This document shows positions 1-11,201 of a stretch of 12,448 nt of DNA, piece after piece (the stretch's first letter is position 1; each line of letters starts with the position of its first letter). Source of the DNA: a virus (taxonomy: Duplodnaviria > Heunggongvirae > Uroviricota > Caudoviricetes); IMG/VR virus record IMGVR_UViG_2648501165_000019; one strand, written 5' to 3'. A program made the position numbers and the translations under genes. A model generated the notes under the pieces. It made no database searches. It was not told where the DNA came from and worked only from the letters and a program-made list of their open reading frames with translations.

Positions 1-1461
1 ATGAAAAAATTACTGCGTCTTTTTTTCCCGCTCTCACTGCGGGTACGTTTTCTGTTGGCAACGGCTGCGGTAGTACTGGTGCTTTCGCTTGCCTACGGAA
101 TGGTCGCGCTGATCGGTTATAGCGTCAGTTTCGATAAAACTACGTTTCGGCTGTTACGTGGCGAGAGCAATCTGTTCTATACCCTTGCGAAGTGGGAAAA
201 CAATAAGTTGCATGTCGAGTTACCCGAAAATATCGACAAGCAAAGCCCCACCATGACGCTAATTTATGATGAGAACGGGCAGCTTTTATGGGCGCAACGT
301 GACGTGCCCTGGCTGATGAAGATGATCCAGCCTGACTGGCTGAAATCGAATGGTTTTCATGAAATTGAAGCGGATGTTAACGATACCAGCCTCTTGCTGA
401 GTGGAGATCATTCGATACAGCAACAGTTGCAGGAAGTGCGGGAAGATGATGACGACGCGGAGATGACCCACTCGGTGGCAGTAAACGTCTACCCGGCAAC
501 ATCGCGGATGCCAAAATTAACCATTGTGGTGGTGGATACCATTCCGGTGGAGCTAAAAAGTTCCTATATGGTCTGGAGCTGGTTTATCTATGTGCTCTCA
601 GCCAATCTGCTGTTAGTGATCCCGCTGCTGTGGGTCGCCGCCTGGTGGAGTTTACGCCCCATCGAAGCCCTGGCAAAAGAAGTCCGCGAACTGGAAGAAC
701 ATAACCGCGAATTGCTCAATCCAGCCACAACGCGAGAACTGACCAGTCTGGTACGAAACCTGAACCGATTGTTAAAAAGTGAACGCGAACGTTACGACAA
801 ATACCGTACGACGCTCACCGACCTGACCCATAGTCTGAAAACGCCACTGGCGGTGCTGCAAAGTACGCTGCGTTCTCTGCGTAGTGAAAAGATGAGCGTC
901 AGTGATGCTGAGCCGGTAATGCTGGAGCAAATCAGCCGCATTTCACAGCAAATTGGCTACTACCTGCATCGTGCCAGTATGCGCGGCGGGACATTGCTCA
1001 GCCGCGAGCTGCATCCGGTCGCCCCACTGCTGGACAATCTCACCTCAGCGCTGAACAAAGTGTATCAACGCAAAGGGGTCAATATCTCTCTCGATATTTC
1101 GCCAGAGATCAGCTTTGTCGGTGAGCAGAACGATTTTGTCGAGGTGATGGGCAACGTGCTGGATAATGCCTGTAAATATTGCCTCGAGTTTGTCGAAATT
1201 TCTGCAAGGCAAACCGACGAGCATCTCTATATTGTGGTCGAGGATGATGGCCCCGGTATTCCATTAAGCAAGCGAGAGGTCATTTTCGACCGTGGTCAAC
1301 GGGTTGATACTTTACGCCCTGGGCAAGGTGTAGGGCTGGCGGTAGCCCGCGAAATCACCGAGCAATATGAGGGTAAAATCGTCGCCGGAGAGAGCATGCT
1401 GGGCGGTGCGCGGATGGAGGTGATTTTTGGTCGCCAGCATTCTGCGCCGAAAGATGAATAA
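1..1461 (+). CDS. phoQ: Sensor histidine kinase PhoQ (PhoP/PhoQ two-component system), complete 486 aa
   Basis: Full-length ORF with ATG at 1 and stop at 1461. Two N-terminal hydrophobic segments, periplasmic acidic patch (EDDDDAEM), HAMP-like region, His-containing dimerisation region ([12 protein letters not shown]) and C-terminal ATPase motifs ([15 protein letters not shown]). Matches E. coli PhoQ as I recall it. Confidence 0.95.
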
Positions 1462-2340: not shown

Positions 2341-2545
2341 GGGTCCTTCCTGGAATTATGGCCCGTTACGGGGCGGCGACCTCGCGGTTTTTATCTGTTT
2401 ATGAGAATTTTCCGGCAAAAGTCAGATCCGATCTTCTTCTCTGTAACAGACTGTTTAACAATGAAAATATTAAAAAAAAGAAAGGATCTGACACGAGGCA
2501 TTTTAGCCAGAAAATGCCATTATCAGATCCTTTCTCATTTTTGTT
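2341..2545 (+). other. cos site copy A: complete lambda-type cos with cosQ-like, cosN and cosB-like R3/R2/R1 elements
   Basis: 2341-2370 GGGTCCTTCCTGGAATTATGGCCCGTTACG resembles the lambda right end (GGGTCCTTTCCGGTGATCCGACAGGTTACG). 2371-2382 GGGCGGCGACCT is identical to the lambda 12-nt cohesive end. 2383-2420 CGCGGTTTTTATCTGTTTATGAGAATTTTCCGG parallels lambda CGCGGGTTTTCGCTATTTATGAAAATTTTCCGG. R-like repeats with a GATCC core in direct/inverted/direct order: 2423-2443, 2477-2498, 2524-2543. Inverted repeat GGCATTTTAGCCAGAAAATGCC at 2497-2518. Confidence 0.8.
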
Positions 2546-3105: not shown

Positions 3106-3257
3106 TAATACACCAACTTAATTACTGCTTCAGGTTGGTGTATTGCTTGCATCTTTCCCTTTTCATTCATAAAGATAGATCAAACAACAAAACCACCACC
3201 CTGAAAAGGCTCATAAATAGCGAAAATCCGCGAGGTCGCCGCCCCGTAACGGGCCAT
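3106..3257 (-). other. cos site copy B (inverted relative to copy A): cosN plus a short, diverged cosB directly upstream of terS
   Basis: 3228-3257 is the exact reverse complement of 2358-2387 (30/30, ATGGCCCGTTACGGGGCGGCGACCTCGCGG); cosN on the minus strand is 3244-3233. Minus-strand continuation ATTTTCGCTATTTATGAG matches the lambda post-cosN sequence. Further toward terS the lambda-like R elements are replaced by GGTGGTGG (3200-3193), CACCAACC (3140-3133) and GTTGGTG (3117-3111). The position where cosQ would lie is occupied by N10 (3258-3267) and a terminator. Confidence 0.75.
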
Positions 3258-3267
3258 NNNNNNNNNN

Positions 3268-3290
3268 TAAAAAAGCCGGATTTCTCCGGC
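3268..3290 (-). terminator. Rho-independent terminator, copy 1 of a conserved hairpin family
   Basis: Minus strand reads GCCGGAGAAATCCGGC followed by TTTTTT: 6-bp GC-rich stem, GAAA loop, U-tract. Sits 7 nt after the stop of the 137-aa gene. Confidence 0.7.
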
Positions 3291-4070: not shown

Positions 4071-5126
4071 TTAACCAATTTTGACGGTAACAAATTTGCG
4101 AATATCTGCCGGTACCGGCTGCGGTGCACTGTGTGTCTGCACGTACTCAATCGCCGGATCGCCGTCCTCAATCCAGTTTTTCGGGTAAAACATGTTTTGT
4201 GTTGCGCCCGTTCTTACCGCTTCCTGATCCATTATCGCACCATAGGCCACCAGCCCTTTATTGTTGGTGTTACCCAGGACCAGCAAATCAGGCTCAAGGA
4301 AATATTTTTCGGTACCATCGCTGTCAGTGTATTTGCCGGAATAGACGATAAGGGCCAGATCACCAAGATAGCCTTTAAAGCTCACCACTTCGCCCAGGTT
4401 TTTACAGGCCAGTTCGGCGGCGGATTCTGAACCACGGGAAAGATCGTACAGCTCACGGAATTTTTTAAAGCTGCGTAATGTGCGCCATACCTCAGCGCCC
4501 ATAATCATGACGTTTGCGGGGCAACCAGCCTGATCAGCATAAAGCTCGATGTCATAGATTGGGTCGTGCATGTCTTTATCCTGCTCGGACCATTTTTTAC
4601 CCTTGGCCTGCTCTATGATGCAGTTTTCCGGTATTTTCCAGTCGATTTCATAGCGTTCTATGCCTTCGCCCTCAATGATGTTTTTTCCGGTCGTTACCGC
4701 ATTCACCGCCAGCCATTCCACGCGTGCCTTAATGGCGTTTATCTGGCGGCGCATGTTGCCAGTAATCAGGCGCATACGGCGATAGGTAGGGTCGTTAAGC
4801 TGTGCCGGATCTTCTCCAGCCATGCGCATGATGGTTTTCGTTGGATCGATTTCGTGCTTTGGCTTCATGTAGCCAGGTTTGATTGTGCTGGTTTCGTACC
4901 CTTTATCGCGCTGAACCTGGCTACCCACCATAGGCGAACAAAACGCCGACATGGTGACTTCTTCAATGTCCAGGGTATCCAGCATGATGTTTTGCGTGCT
5001 GAATGTCGCCACGTTCGGGAAAAACAGCGTGGTAAACAGAGGGCTGAATTTAAAATCCGCAATATCCCCGCGATTCAGGTACATGAAAAGCTGGTTAGTG
5101 TTAAGTGCCGTTGCTTTGCCTGCCAT
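4071..5126 (-). CDS. Major capsid protein, lambda gpE-like (351 aa)
   Basis: Colinear similarity to lambda gpE over the whole length (recalled): PGYMKPKHEIDP vs PGYVKPKHEVNP; DPAQLNDPTYRRMR vs DPQNLADPAYRRRR; FKGYLGDLALIVYSGKYTD vs YKGMYGDVAIVVYSGQYVE; LLVLGNTNNKGLVAYGAIMD vs TMVLGNTQARGLRTYGCIQD; YPKNWIEDGDPAIEY vs YPKNWVTTGDPAREF. Confidence 0.9.
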   Translation of the reverse strand: MAGKATALNTNQLFMYLNRGDIADFKFSPLFTTLFFPNVATFSTQNIMLDTLDIEEVTMSAFCSPMVGSQVQRDKGYETSTIKPGYMKPKHEIDPTKTIMRMAGEDPAQLNDPTYRRMRLITGNMRRQINAIKARVEWLAVNAVTTGKNIIEGEGIERYEIDWKIPENCIIEQAKGKKWSEQDKDMHDPIYDIELYADQAGCPANVMIMGAEVWRTLRSFKKFRELYDLSRGSESAAELACKNLGEVVSFKGYLGDLALIVYSGKYTDSDGTEKYFLEPDLLVLGNTNNKGLVAYGAIMDQEAVRTGATQNMFYPKNWIEDGDPAIEYVQTHSAPQPVPADIRKFVTVKIG

Positions 5127-5365
5127 TATTCACCCCCATAATTTTTATGCATCCCAAGCGCCGCAAGTAAATAAGAGCGTACAAGTGAACCTATCGACGG
5201 CTCCGGCGTCATCAGCGGATCCAGTCCAGCCGCAACGCCAGCTTCATAGTTTTTTTTGTGGCGCTGCTTGAGCACCTCCACGATTTCGGGGCTTATGTAC
5301 ACCGAAACACCGCCTTTTTTCTCTTCAGCCATAGTAAGAAATTCCTCTTCGACTAAAAAAATCAT
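5126..5365 (-). CDS. Small hypothetical protein translationally coupled to the capsid gene (79 aa, or 68 aa from an alternative ATG at 5332)
   Basis: Its stop TAA overlaps the capsid ATG (TAATG). Neither candidate start has a strong ribosome-binding site, so the start is uncertain. No family recognised. Confidence 0.45.
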   Translation of the reverse strand: MIFLVEEEFLTMAEEKKGGVSVYISPEIVEVLKQRHKKNYEAGVAAGLDPLMTPEPSIGSLVRSYLLAALGMHKNYGGE

Positions 5366-5366
5366 A

Positions 5367-5416
5367 ACTGGATGTTTATCCAGTCCTGATTATAATCAGA
5401 ATTGCATTTTATGCAA
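5367..5416 (-). promoter_or_regulatory. Candidate regulated promoter of the head operon: near-consensus sigma70 elements embedded in three adjacent palindromes
   Basis: On the minus strand, -35 TTGCAT (5416-5411), 16-bp spacer, -10 TATAAT (5394-5389). The -35 lies inside palindrome TTGCATTTTATGCAA (5402-5416), the -10 inside CTGATTATAATCAG (5386-5399), and ACTGGAT-GTTT-ATCCAGT (5367-5384) covers the predicted start site. Confidence 0.5.
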
Positions 5417-5496
5417 TGATATTGAGTTATGTTGCAAATTATGAAATGATTATCCCGATCACGAACGCCAGTGCATCCAAAAACCTCATATGCAAA

Positions 5497-5535
5497 AGCC
5501 CGATAAGAACCCTCTGACCTTATCGGGCTTTTTTT
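5497..5535 (+). terminator. Hairpin terminator, possibly bidirectional
   Basis: AGCCCGATAAG, 11-nt loop, CTTATCGGGCT (11-bp stem) followed by TTTTTT on the plus strand. An A-run precedes it, so the minus strand also sees a weaker U-rich tail. Confidence 0.55.
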
Positions 5536-5541
5536 GGGCGC

Positions 5542-5563
5542 AAAAAAGCCGGATTGCTCCGGC
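5542..5563 (-). terminator. Rho-independent terminator, copy 2 of the conserved hairpin family
   Basis: Minus strand GCCGGAGCAATCCGGC followed by TTTTTT; lies after the 74-aa gene. Confidence 0.7.
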
Positions 5564-5583
5564 TATGTGTGCTGTGTGCTGGC

Positions 5584-5903: not shown

Positions 5904-5926
5904 CAAAAAAAGCCGGATTTCTCCGG
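5904..5926 (-). terminator. Rho-independent terminator, copy 3 of the conserved hairpin family
   Basis: Minus strand GCCGGAGAAATCCGGC followed by TTTTTTT; lies 9 nt after the stop of the PerC-like gene. Confidence 0.7.
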
Positions 5927-5934
5927 CTGTTTGA

Positions 5935-10854: not shown

Positions 10855-11125
10855 TATTGCCCCCTTTCGTTTCTTAAAGAGTCATCAGGTGTCTTATTGT
10901 GTCGTATTGTTCCCGCTAGAGTGATGAATGGCAAATACTGAGGATGTATGATTTACAGAAAATGAAAAAGTAAGAATAAAATCTTTTAAATTCATGTTAA
11001 TACAAAGGCATAAAATATTGTTCCATGCCTTTTTTCTCGCTCTTTAAAGAGTGATTCGCTAGTGTATAAAAAACCAGTAACACATTAAAAATCAGCTACT
11101 TATAAATCCGTACGCTTTTTCGCCT

Positions 11126-11201
11126 CTTGTTCGTAGTTGTTCCACATTGTTGCTCATTGTTGCACGTTGTATCTGTTCGCATATCCAGTATGCGCATACT
11201 G
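11126..11201 (-). repeat. Helically phased TTGTT repeats plus a 14-bp palindrome in the int-alpA intergenic region
   Basis: TTGTT recurs at roughly 10-bp intervals across 11126-11180 (CTTGTTCGTAGTTGTTCCACATTGTTGCTCATTGTTGCACGTTGT), followed by the perfect palindrome AGTATGCGCATACT at 11188-11201. Confidence 0.5.

What the first reader, a model, noticed from the sequence alone, without database searches (positions are those of the whole stretch)
5367..5563. Head operon is gated by tandem terminators followed by a palindrome-rich promoter
Transcription coming from the replication genes meets a strong terminator (5542-5563) and a second hairpin (5497-5535). It is followed by a TTGCAT-16-TATAAT promoter whose -35, -10 and start site each sit inside a separate perfect palindrome. 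TTGCA(A/T) motifs recur further upstream at 5426-5455. This looks like a tightly controlled late switch, possibly read by a helper-encoded late regulator or by the island PerC-like protein.
Basis: seen in the sequence. Interest (0 to 1): 0.55.

Follow-up and report, generated by a model that had tools for sequence, protein, structure and literature searches.

The report
Terminator-insulated capsid promoter with SOS box
Between the replication and capsid genes of an E. coli phage satellite (an EcCICFT073/OI-51-type PICI) lie real tandem terminators and a strongly conserved promoter, and the palindrome at its start site matches the binding site of the host SOS repressor LexA, so DNA damage rather than a phage late regulator may open the capsid operon.

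Summary
All island genes are on the minus strand. The region contains a strong intrinsic terminator (T1, 5564-5541), a second hairpin (T2, 5535-5494), a TTGCAT-16-TATAAT promoter, and three abutting perfect 7-bp-arm palindromes (5417-5367). No shuffle reproduces the palindromes.

- **Start-site palindrome.** GACTGGATAAACATCCAGTT is a LexA/SOS-box match (CTG-N10-CAG). It closely resembles the ruvAB box, which I verified in K-12. It ties for best LexA score in the window, and its core is present in 79 of 80 relatives collected through the capsid protein, and in Salmonella islands.
- **Third terminator.** The same palindrome extends to a 14-bp stem plus a U-run (T3). Its left arm overlaps the -10 hexamer, so only read-through RNA should contain it.
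- **T1.** It is one of three identical module-boundary terminators in the window.
- **T2.** It has its better U-tract on the opposite strand.
- **Upstream repeat.** A 21-bp block at about -69 to -49 is 95% conserved between E. coli and Salmonella (neutral sites 46%) and is repeated over the -35.
- **PerC.** It lies upstream in only 53 of 93 relatives.
- **Phages.** No phage record shares the region.

Best reading: an insulated sigma-70 promoter gated by host LexA, as in SaPI operon I. This is untested experimentally.

The parts
5541..5564 (-). T1: intrinsic terminator closing the upstream (p74) gene. Stem-loop 5564-5547, U6 5546-5541.
   Evidence: Present after whichever gene lies upstream in the relatives, with compensated stem variants such as GCCGGGG/CCCCGGC in Salmonella. 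One of three identical copies in the window.
5494..5535 (.). T2: bidirectional hairpin terminator. A7, then a 10-bp stem (5528-5498), then U4 on the minus strand; U7 on the plus strand.
   Evidence: It travels with the capsid module. In Salmonella islands an unrelated GC-rich hairpin replaces it, with a U-rich tail only on the plus-equivalent strand.
5431..5451 (-). U1: conserved upstream block AATCATTTCATAATTTGCAAC, at about -69 to -49.
   Evidence: 19 of 20 positions identical between E. coli and Salmonella, against 46% at capsid-gene third codon positions. Fixed 14-nt distance to the -35 in all variants. Present in 79 of 80 loci found through the capsid protein.
5401..5421 (-). U2: direct repeat of U1 (16 of 21). 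Contains palindrome 1 (5417-5401) and the -35 hexamer TTGCAT (5416-5411).
   Evidence: The palindrome is imperfect in most relatives (innermost pair unpaired in 40 of 53), but TTGC is invariant.
5386..5399 (.). Palindrome 2, CTGATTATAATCAG. It holds a perfect TATAAT on both strands (minus 5394-5389, plus 5391-5396).
   Evidence: TTGCNN-16-TATAAT is present in 80 of 80 loci found through the capsid protein.
5366..5385 (.). LexA/SOS-box-like operator GACTGGATAAACATCCAGTT (palindrome 3 at 5384-5367). It covers about -3 to +17 of the inferred start.
5355..5391 (-). T3: extended hairpin AATCAgGACTGGAT/ATCCAGTTaTGATT (5391-5360) running into a U-run to 5355. A terminator for read-through RNA; its left arm overlaps the -10.
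5126..5350 (-). RBS GAAGAGGAA (5350-5342) and the first gene of the capsid unit. This is a 68-aa protein starting at the ATG at 5332, not at 5365.
   Evidence: In most relatives the upstream ATG is followed by a stop (ATGATTTTTTAA). RefSeq annotates the 68-aa form.
3270..3290 (-). Third copy of the T1 terminator. It closes the capsid unit after the 137-aa gene.
5907..5927 (-). First copy of the T1 terminator, directly after the PerC gene.

Best explanation
The region is an insulated, SOS-gated promoter for the capsid transcription unit of an EcCICFT073/OI-51-type PICI. That unit comprises the 68-aa protein, a gpE-like capsid protein, a gpD-like decoration protein and a 137-aa protein.

Proposed mechanism:
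1. Transcripts from the AlpA-driven early/replication operon stop at repeated intrinsic terminators: the T1 copies at 5927-5907 and 5564-5541, backed up by T2 and T3.
2. The capsid unit therefore depends on its own sigma-70 promoter (TTGCAT-16-TATAAT, start near 5382).
3. Host LexA binds the CTG-N10-CAG box at 5385-5366 across the start site and keeps the promoter shut.
4. RecA-mediated LexA cleavage, the same signal that induces the helper prophage, opens it.
5. RNA started at this promoter lacks the left arm of T3 and passes through. Read-through RNA from upstream contains the full 14-bp stem plus U-run and terminates.
6. The conserved U1/U2 repeat upstream of and over the weak -35 probably binds a further, unidentified factor that sets promoter strength.

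Shown from sequence and comparison: the elements, their coordinates, their conservation and the LexA-box match.
Inferred: the transcription start, LexA binding, SOS inducibility, terminator efficiency and any role of U1/U2.
For: Context:
- The window is phoQ plus a minus-strand PICI with integrase, an AlpA-like regulator, a DUF4222 (RgdR-type) protein, a RepA helicase, SSB, PerC, Phage_cap_E, HDPD and a Nu1-like protein.
- It corresponds to OI-51/CP-933C/Sp7 and to EcCICFT073 relatives (PMC6092414, PMC3378721).

Terminators.

Promoter:
- TTGCNN-16-TATAAT is present in 80 of 80 loci retrieved through the capsid protein alone and in Salmonella islands whose 68-aa protein is only 53-55% identical.
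- E. coli versus Salmonella identity is 95% for U1, 81% for -35 through -10, and 85% for the box. It is 50% in the spacer between U1 and the -35, and 46% at capsid-gene third codon positions.

LexA box:
- Fifteen LexA boxes recalled from the literature were each found as exact sequences upstream of their genes in K-12.
- With a matrix built from those 15, the site scores a heterology index of 7.95 here, 6.04 in the commonest variant, 5.4 in the ATACAG variants and 7.5 in Salmonella. The verified boxes range from 2.0 to 9.5.
- In 127 kb of K-12, 13 of 14 sites scoring 9 or better are known boxes. Random sequence gives none in 3 Mb at this score.
- It is near-identical in its core to the ruvAB box CGCTGGATATCTATCCAGCA.
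- In 954 kb of related loci, sites scoring 9 or better occur 88 times at this promoter. The 17 other hits are five closely related sequences; those located, here and in L002/L003, lie in the int-alpA region.
- The CTG-N10-CAG core is present in 79 of 80 capsid-ascertained loci.
- The arms are identical from E. coli to Salmonella while the 4-nt centre varies. Some variants change ATCCAG to ATACAG, which breaks the hairpin but improves the LexA match.

T3:
- 96% of cells are paired.
- The commonest variant forms a perfect 14-bp stem (-17.7 kcal/mol) abutting U6.
- There is a compensated change, AATTAT...ATAATT, in L137/L151.

Precedent: SaPI operon I is controlled by LexA (Ubeda 2007, title as cited).
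Against: - No experiment bears on this promoter. The start site is unmapped.
- The box is of the weaker CTGG...CCAG class, although ruvAB and cho share that class.
- My heterology index uses my own 15-site matrix, so it is not comparable with published thresholds.
- The conserved arms could instead be explained by the T3 hairpin or a 5' RNA stem.
- Most relatives are close (capsid protein 92-100% identical), and the left arm was fixed by the search pattern in the set. Real evolutionary depth comes only from three or four Salmonella-type loci.
- A ciprofloxacin transcriptome of EDL933 places CP-933C among the elements carrying the few down-regulated phage genes. It does not report induction of its capsid genes, and the gene-level table was not readable.
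- For EcCICFT073, alpA induction was reported to depend on the helper and not on SOS. That concerns a different promoter.
- A LexA-only gate would leave the operon shut during helper infection without DNA damage.
Confidence: 0.55

Rival explanations
1. Activator-dependent late switch. The weak -35 promoter needs a protein that binds the U1/U2 direct repeat at about -59 and -29. That protein could be island-encoded (AlpA, the DUF4222/RgdR protein, or PerC where present) or helper-encoded. The start-site palindrome would be secondary. This can coexist with LexA gating.
For: - U1 is the most conserved element (95% between E. coli and Salmonella) and sits at a fixed distance from the -35.
- U1 and U2 match at 16 of 21 positions, 30 bp apart (P about 0.0006).
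- The -35 matches only 3 of 6 positions, and the 16-nt spacer is invariant.
- AlpA and DUF4222 genes are annotated in the E. coli relatives, and DUF4222 also in the Salmonella loci.
- RgdR and PerC are known promoter activators.
Against: - PerC lies upstream in only 53 of 93 loci.
- No other U-like motif occurs elsewhere in the window, including upstream of alpA, which AlpA autoactivates.
- The LEE1 promoter, which RgdR and PerC activate, shows no similarity to this promoter (60 of 200 shuffles score as well).
- No phage record shares the region.
- No Ogr/Delta, CII or sigma-54 consensus is present.
- The U1/U2 repeat decays to 10-11 of 21 in Salmonella.
Confidence: 0.3
2. The palindromes act only as RNA structure. 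The start-site palindrome would be just the core of a third intrinsic terminator (T3) or a 5' stabilising hairpin. Its resemblance to a LexA box would be a by-product of being an AT-rich palindrome, and LexA would not bind.
For: - An extended 14-bp stem abuts a U-run.
- G.U wobbles fall on the coding-strand sense (8 and 12 sequences), and there are compensated changes.
- The scan flags it as terminator-like.
Against: - The inner arms show no covariation from E. coli to Salmonella, which fits base-specific recognition.
- The ATACAG variants break a G-C pair yet improve the LexA score.
- The LexA match is ranked highly against verified boxes and is absent from random sequence.
- The box lies exactly over the inferred start site, a common location for LexA operators.
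Confidence: 0.2
3. A divergent small-RNA unit. The palindromic -10 fires in both directions, and the plus strand yields an RNA of about 140 nt (about 5403-5541) that ends at T2. U1 would be its conserved single-stranded segment. T2 and U1 would then belong to this RNA rather than to the capsid promoter.
For: - A perfect TATAAT lies on both strands.
- T2 has U7 on the plus strand and only U4 on the minus strand.
- T1 and T2 are arranged like convergent terminators.
- In Salmonella, T2 is replaced by an unrelated hairpin whose U-rich tail is on the plus-equivalent strand only.
- U1 is a 20-nt asymmetric conserved block.
Against: - The plus-strand -35 matches only 2-3 of 6 positions.
- No Rfam family matches.
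- No Hfq-bound sRNA is listed for Sp7 in the EHEC CLIP tables.
- RefSeq annotates nothing there.
- There is no strand-consistent covariation in the palindrome-1 stem.
Confidence: 0.15
4. A Q-type or other helper antitermination target, analogous to lambda PR'-tR'. A constitutive promoter would be followed by a terminator that only helper-modified RNA polymerase passes.
For: - A perfect -10 is followed at once by a terminator-like hairpin with a U-run.
- The island's capsid and Nu1-like genes and its cos site are lambda-type.
Against: - The left arm of T3 lies upstream of the inferred start, so locally started RNA cannot form the terminator.
- There is no sequence similarity to any phage late region.
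- No boxA is present.
Confidence: 0.04

Closest known systems
LexA control of SaPI operon I, the packaging/capsid-remodelling operon of Staphylococcus aureus pathogenicity islands (Ubeda et al. 2007)
   Same: A phage satellite puts its morphogenesis and packaging genes under the host SOS repressor, separately from the master switch that senses the helper.
   Different: The host here is Gram-negative, with the E. coli-type CTG-N10-CAG box and lambda-type capsid genes. The island uses an AlpA activator rather than an Stl repressor. LexA binding is inferred here, not demonstrated.
E. coli ruvAB and cho SOS boxes (the CTGG...CCAG class)
   Same: The core CTGGAT-N4-ATCCAG is nearly identical to ruvAB CGCTGGATATCTATCCAGCA, verified in K-12. 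The score falls within the range of verified boxes.
   Different: The site lies in a mobile island, and it is embedded in a longer hairpin that doubles as a terminator.
EcCICFT073-type Gram-negative PICIs (Fillol-Salom 2018, 2019) and O-island 51/CP-933C (Flockhart 2012)
   Same: The same gene order and the same capsid (c1499-like), decoration (c1500-like) and Rpp/Nu1-like genes. AlpA is the helper-induced activator.
   Different: The papers read here describe no promoter, terminator or LexA control for the capsid module.
Lambda PR'-tR' and P4 Psid/PLL late promoters
   Same: These are dedicated late promoters for morphogenesis genes, set apart from early transcription.
   Different: There is no qut-like similarity to phages, no TGT-N12-ACA site for Ogr/Delta, and the terminator overlaps the promoter instead of following it.
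Symmetric bidirectional promoters (divergent transcription from palindromic -10 elements; recalled from my own knowledge, not checked in the library)
   Same: TGATTATAATCA carries TATAAT on both strands.
   Different: Only the minus direction has a TTG-type -35, and a plus-strand transcript is unproven.

Membership tests
Intrinsic (Rho-independent) terminator | GC-rich stem, short loop, and a U-tract directly 3' of the stem on the transcribed strand | tested here: met
   T1 has 7 pairs (5 G-C), a 4-nt loop and U6. T3 in extended form has a 14-bp stem abutting U5-7. T2 meets the feature fully on the plus strand (U7) and only weakly on the minus strand (U4).
Intrinsic (Rho-independent) terminator | Termination of transcription in vivo or in vitro | not testable with these tools
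   No term-seq or in vitro data available.
Sigma-70 promoter | -35 and -10 hexamers 16-18 bp apart | tested here: met
   The -10 is a perfect TATAAT, the -35 is TTGCAT (3 of 6, with the TTG kept), and the spacer is 16 nt. This holds in 80 of 80 capsid-ascertained relatives.
Sigma-70 promoter | A mapped transcription start | not testable with these tools
   The start near 5382 is inferred from the position of the -10.
E. coli-type LexA (SOS) operator | CTG-N10-CAG core within a 20-bp near-palindrome | tested here: met
   CTGGATAAACATCCAG at 5383-5368 is the only match in 5340-5520. The core is present in 79 of 80 relatives.
E. coli-type LexA (SOS) operator | Score within the range of functional boxes and well above background | tested here: met
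   Heterology index of 5.4-8.0 across most variants (9.85 in the L040-type variant), against 2.0-9.5 for 15 boxes verified in K-12. Random sequence gives none in 3 Mb.
E. coli-type LexA (SOS) operator | Overlap with the promoter or start site of the regulated gene | tested here: met
   The box starts 4 bp after the -10 and spans the inferred +1.
E. coli-type LexA (SOS) operator | LexA binding and RecA-dependent induction | not testable with these tools
   No ChIP or EMSA data. The gene-level table of the one SOS transcriptome found was not held.
PerC-dependent promoter | The regulator co-occurs with its target | tested here: not met
   PerC lies within 1.5 kb upstream in 53 of 93 loci and is absent from L003-type and Salmonella islands. 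There is no similarity to the PerC-responsive LEE1 promoter.
P2 Ogr / P4 Delta-activated late promoter | TGT-N12-ACA dyad near -55 | tested here: not met
   No match on either strand in 5340-5520.
Lambdoid Q-dependent late promoter (PR'-qut-tR') | Homology to a helper late-promoter region, with a terminator downstream of the start | tested here: not met
   No phage record matches. The left arm of T3 lies upstream of the inferred start.
Known small-RNA or cis-regulatory RNA family | A match to an Rfam covariance model | tested here: not met
   No hit at gathering score. The best sub-threshold hits are 14-18 bits against cut-offs of 37-208.

The most novel reading that the evidence does not exclude
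The 14-bp palindrome around the -10 is a LexA-gated bidirectional promoter. On the minus strand it fires the capsid operon. On the plus strand it fires an SOS-induced small RNA of about 140 nt that ends at T2 and carries the ultra-conserved U1 block as its seed. The satellite would then answer DNA damage with both structural genes and a trans-acting riboregulator, possibly aimed at helper or host mRNAs. The same DNA also encodes a terminator (T3) that only read-through RNA can fold.
Probability: 0.12. Interest if true: 0.65.

Novelty: new member of a known kind. Interest (0 to 1): 0.42.

Why it matters
Work on Gram-negative PICIs has centred on AlpA as the helper-induced master activator. The papers read here say nothing about how the capsid, decoration and packaging-side genes are timed.

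If the capsid unit is cut off from the AlpA operon by terminators and opened by LexA cleavage, these satellites sense two signals independently: helper presence through AlpA and DNA damage through LexA. That would be convergent with SaPI operon I in staphylococci.

This would predict that SOS-inducing antibiotics directly raise expression of the satellite's capsid genes. In relatives these genes have been examined for interference with lambda (PMC6092414).

The finding also gives a compact natural example of a promoter nested inside a terminator, which insulates it from upstream transcription. About 600 of 5,426 complete E. coli genomes carry this promoter, including O157:H7, Nissle 1917 and ATCC 25922.

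Tried and rejected
- **Phage similarity.** blastn of 5333-5545 against 50,697 phage records gave one 26-nt chance hit, so the region is not a copy of a helper late promoter.
- **Genome collection.** A capsid-protein search of genome contigs found nothing. The DNA pattern there gave only chance hits in unrelated MAGs, so the species representatives lack the island.
- **Rfam.** Nothing at gathering score, and only weak chance hits at the permissive threshold (AgrB, AgvB and others).
- **Esr41 or another EHEC sRNA at T2.** Esr41 is on SpLE1, and the Hfq-CLIP tables list no sRNA for Sp7.
- **PerC as regulator.** Co-occurrence fails.
- **LEE1 promoter resembling this promoter.** This would have explained why the island proteins RgdR and PerC activate LEE1. 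No similarity beyond shuffles was found.
- **Other consensus sites.** Ogr/Delta, lambda CII, sigma-54, CRP, FNR, IHF, extended -10 and boxA are all absent.
- **Palindrome 2 as a Fur-like or other operator.** The half-site spacing is wrong by eye. Its outer pair shows all four combinations across variants. Where palindrome 2 and T3 pairing conflict, T3 is kept.
- **An upstream tandem promoter, TTCATA-18-TATCAT**. Its -10 is not conserved.
- **L132 as evidence that the promoter serves a second, HK97-type head module.** It is a single chimeric genome, joined at the CTGG of the box. The parental cf-PICI lacks T2, U1 and this promoter.
- **The 79-aa ORF from the ATG at 5365.** It is closed by a stop in most relatives, so the real start is 5332.
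- **SOS transcriptome.** The supplement of the ciprofloxacin EDL933 paper was not held as text for the relevant genes.
Full report
**Context.** The window runs from phoQ (1-1461, plus strand) into a mobile island whose genes all lie on the minus strand. In order these are:
- integrase (12448-11219)
- a 62-aa AlpA-like HTH protein (10854-10666)
- a DUF4222 protein
- a RepA-family helicase (8477-7077)
- SSB
- PerC (6207-5935)
- a 74-aa protein (5808-5584)
- a 68-aa protein
- a Phage_cap_E capsid protein (5126-4071)
- an HDPD decoration protein
- a 137-aa protein
- a Nu1-like small terminase/Rpp-type protein (3105-2563)

The same DNA is found at 99-100% identity in O157:H7 genomes next to phoQ. 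It corresponds to O-island 51/CP-933C/Sp7, which Fillol-Salom et al. group with the EcCICFT073-type PICIs (PMC6092414, PMC3378721). The finding is therefore the boundary between the replication module and the capsid module of a known satellite family. It must be read on the minus strand.

- T1 is AGCCGGAGCAATCCGGCT (5564-5547) followed by T6. It folds at -15.9 kcal/mol with z = -5.0.
- T2 is A7-GCCCGATAAG...CTTATCGGGC-T4 (5535-5494). It folds at -21.8 kcal/mol.
- The promoter is TTGCAT (5416-5411), a 16-nt spacer and TATAAT (5394-5389).
- Three perfect palindromes with 7-bp arms abut one another at 5417-5401, 5399-5386 and 5384-5367. They cover 49 of 61 bases. None of 5,000 shuffles covers as much, and three or more such palindromes arise in 0.04-0.2% of shuffles.
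- The upstream TTGCAA is part of a 21-bp direct repeat. U1 (AATCATTTCATAATTTGCAAC, 5451-5431) and U2 (TATCATTGCATAAAATGCAAT, 5421-5401) match at 16 of 21 positions and lie 30 bp apart (P about 0.0006).

**Terminators and modularity.**
- T1 is not unique. Identical copies (GCCGGAGNAATCCGGCTTTTT) sit after PerC (5927-5907), after the 74-aa gene (5563-5543) and after the 137-aa gene (3290-3270); chance expectation is zero.
The capsid unit is closed before the Nu1-like gene.
- In relatives the gene upstream of the region varies among the 74-aa gene, PerC, SSB and others. It always ends in a T1-type hairpin, with compensated stems in Salmonella.
- Megablast hits break exactly between T1 and T2. T1 thus belongs to the upstream cassette, and T2 belongs to the capsid module.
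- T2 has U7 on the plus strand and U4 on the minus strand. In Salmonella islands it is replaced by an unrelated GC-rich hairpin whose U-rich tail lies only on the plus-equivalent strand. T2 is therefore at least as much a terminator for plus-strand transcription as a back-up for T1.

**Conservation.** I collected relatives in four ways:
- by BLAST (L001-L003)
- through the 68-aa protein (L004-L009, L239)
- by DNA pattern
- through the capsid protein alone, which does not presuppose the promoter

In the capsid-ascertained set, 80 of 80 loci have TTGCNN-16-TATAAT, 79 of 80 have the CTG-N10-CAG core at the start site, and 79 of 80 have U1. These are close relatives, so depth comes from the Salmonella islands, where the 68-aa protein is 53-55% identical and the capsid protein 67-68%.

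Identity between E. coli and Salmonella:

| Segment | Identity |
|---|---|
| U1 | 95% |
| -35 through -10 | 81% |
| Start-site box | 85% |
| Spacer between U1 and the -35 | 50% |
| Capsid-gene third codon positions | 46% |

The three blocks are therefore under purifying selection while the DNA between them is not.

**The start-site palindrome as a LexA operator.** GACTGGATAAACATCCAGTT has the E. coli SOS-box core CTG-N10-CAG. It is the only such match in 5340-5520.
- Rather than rely on memory, I fetched K-12 regions and confirmed that 15 recalled LexA boxes occur as exact sequences upstream of their genes. These are recA, lexA (two), uvrA/ssb, uvrB, sulA, umuDC, dinG, recN (three), ruvAB, cho and ydjM (two).
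- The ruvAB box, CGCTGGATATCTATCCAGCA, shares CTGGAT-N4-ATCCAG with the island site.
- With a symmetrised matrix from these 15 boxes, the verified boxes score a heterology index of 2.0-9.5. The island site scores 7.95 here, 6.04 in the commonest variant, 5.4 in the ATACAG variants and 7.5 in Salmonella. Leaving ruvAB and cho out of the matrix changes little.
- In 127 kb of K-12, 13 of the 14 sites scoring 9 or better are known boxes. A 3-Mb random sequence gives none at 7.95 or better.
- In 954 kb of related island DNA, sites scoring 9 or better fall 88 times at this promoter. The 17 others are five closely related sequences; the copies I located, in this window and in L002/L003, lie in the int-alpA region.
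- The arms are identical from E. coli to Salmonella while the central four bases vary. A few variants replace ATCCAG with ATACAG, which breaks a stem pair but moves towards the LexA consensus. That pattern fits base-specific protein recognition better than an RNA stem.
- The box begins 4 bp after the -10 and spans the inferred start, where many LexA operators sit.
- The closest precedent is the LexA-controlled operon I of SaPIs. None of the Gram-negative PICI papers in the library mentions LexA control.

**A third terminator nested in the promoter.** The palindrome extends outwards to AATCAgGACTGGAT/ATCCAGTTaTGATT (5391-5360), which runs straight into a U-run.
- The window version folds at -13.8 kcal/mol.
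- The commonest variant forms a perfect 14-bp stem at -17.7 kcal/mol.
- Across 53 distinct variants, 96% of cells pair. The variable positions give G.U wobbles on the coding-strand sense.
- L137 and L151 carry a compensated C-G to U-A change, AATTAT...ATAATT.
- Where this pairing conflicts with palindrome 2, the pairing is kept and the palindrome is lost.
- The left arm overlaps the -10. RNA started about 7 nt downstream should therefore lack it and keep only a 7-bp 5' hairpin separated from the U-run. Read-through RNA should contain the whole terminator. This step is inference, but it explains why the outer arms and the U-run are conserved.

**Who else reads the promoter.** The weak -35, the invariant 16-nt spacer and the conserved, phased U1/U2 repeat suggest an additional factor.
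- PerC is a poor candidate. It lies upstream in only 53 of 93 loci.
- The idea that the LEE1 promoter resembles this promoter, which would explain why the island proteins PerC and RgdR activate LEE1, failed.
- No U-like motif occurs near alpA.
- No phage record shares the region, and no Ogr/Delta, CII, sigma-54 or boxA consensus is present.
- The factor stays unidentified. AlpA and the DUF4222/RgdR protein remain possible only because both genes are annotated in the E. coli relatives, and DUF4222 also in the Salmonella loci.

**A plus-strand transcript.** Palindrome 2 carries TATAAT on both strands. Together with the plus-strand bias of T2 and the asymmetric, highly conserved U1, this allows a divergent RNA of about 140 nt (5403-5541). 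Against it:
- the plus-strand -35 is poor
- Rfam finds nothing
- the EHEC Hfq-CLIP tables list no sRNA in Sp7
- nothing is annotated there

I keep it as the most novel reading, at about 12-15%.

**Verdict.** The best-supported mechanism is host LexA gating of a terminator-insulated sigma-70 promoter, possibly with an unidentified factor at U1/U2. It is a new member of known kinds (an SOS-regulated promoter, and satellite morphogenesis genes under LexA). It is moderately interesting because it is directly testable and would add a second, helper-independent input to Gram-negative PICI regulation.

Noticed in passing
window 3270-3290, 5543-5563, 5907-5927 (minus strand): Three identical copies of one terminator (GCCGGAGNAATCCGGCTTTTT) close three successive cassettes: PerC, the 74-aa gene and the capsid unit. 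They look like module-boundary repeats that could drive cassette exchange. The 74-aa gene plus its terminator is absent from many relatives.
   Followed up: partly
window 2358-2415 and 3200-3257: A 58-nt inverted repeat (88% complementary) flanks the Nu1-like/Rpp-type gene. Each arm carries a lambda-type cosN sequence (GGGCGGCGACCT), so the island has two cos-like sites in opposite orientation, 784 nt apart.
   Followed up: partly
window 11060-11079 and 11171-11190 (int-alpA spacer); also L002 and L003: Two further LexA-box-like sites lie between the integrase and alpA. TACTGGTTTTTTATACACTA scores a heterology index of 7.7 but has CAC in place of CAG; TACTGGATATGCGAACAGAT scores 11.4. Different but equally LexA-like sequences lie near the integrase end of L002 and L003 (AGCTGTACAGAAAACCAGTA), and related ones occur in other relatives (AACTGTACAAAAAACCAGTA). 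Published work says alpA induction is helper-dependent, not SOS-dependent.
   Followed up: partly
window 11186-11201: A perfect 16-bp palindrome, CAGTATGCGCATACTG, lies just after the integrase stop codon and overlaps one of the LexA-like sites.
   Followed up: no
L003 6236-6410 (also L038, L094, L132, L238): Some relatives carry an insert of about 170 bp between T1 and T2. It contains a 19-codon ORF (MMVVVNFRSTSLQADKKAR) ending at T2, possibly a small toxin-like or leader peptide.
   Followed up: no
L132 2420-2735 (E. coli JNEC-KY176): A single genome carries a chimera in which T2, U1, the -35 and the -10 of this promoter are fused to the leader of an HK97-type capsid/protease/portal module from a capsid-forming PICI. 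The junction is at the CTGG of the LexA-like box. The parental element (L156, O157:H7 PA20) has T1 but a different promoter region.
   Followed up: yes
window 5365-5333: The 79-aa ORF listed from the ATG at 5365 is open only because this variant has T7. Most relatives have T6, which gives ATGATTTTTTAA (a stop). The real start is the ATG at 5332, behind the RBS GAAGAGGAA.
   Followed up: yes
window 1637 onwards and 3258-3267: The window contains 23 ambiguous bases in two runs. The run at 3258-3267 replaces about 18 nt of real sequence seen in L001 (cgggtccttcctggaatt), directly between the third terminator copy and a cos-like arm.
   Followed up: partly
L128 2339-2358 (K-12 1226338, minC-ycgJ spacer): ACCTGTTTAAATATCCAGTA scores as well as verified LexA boxes (heterology index 6.1) but was not on my list of known boxes.
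   Followed up: no
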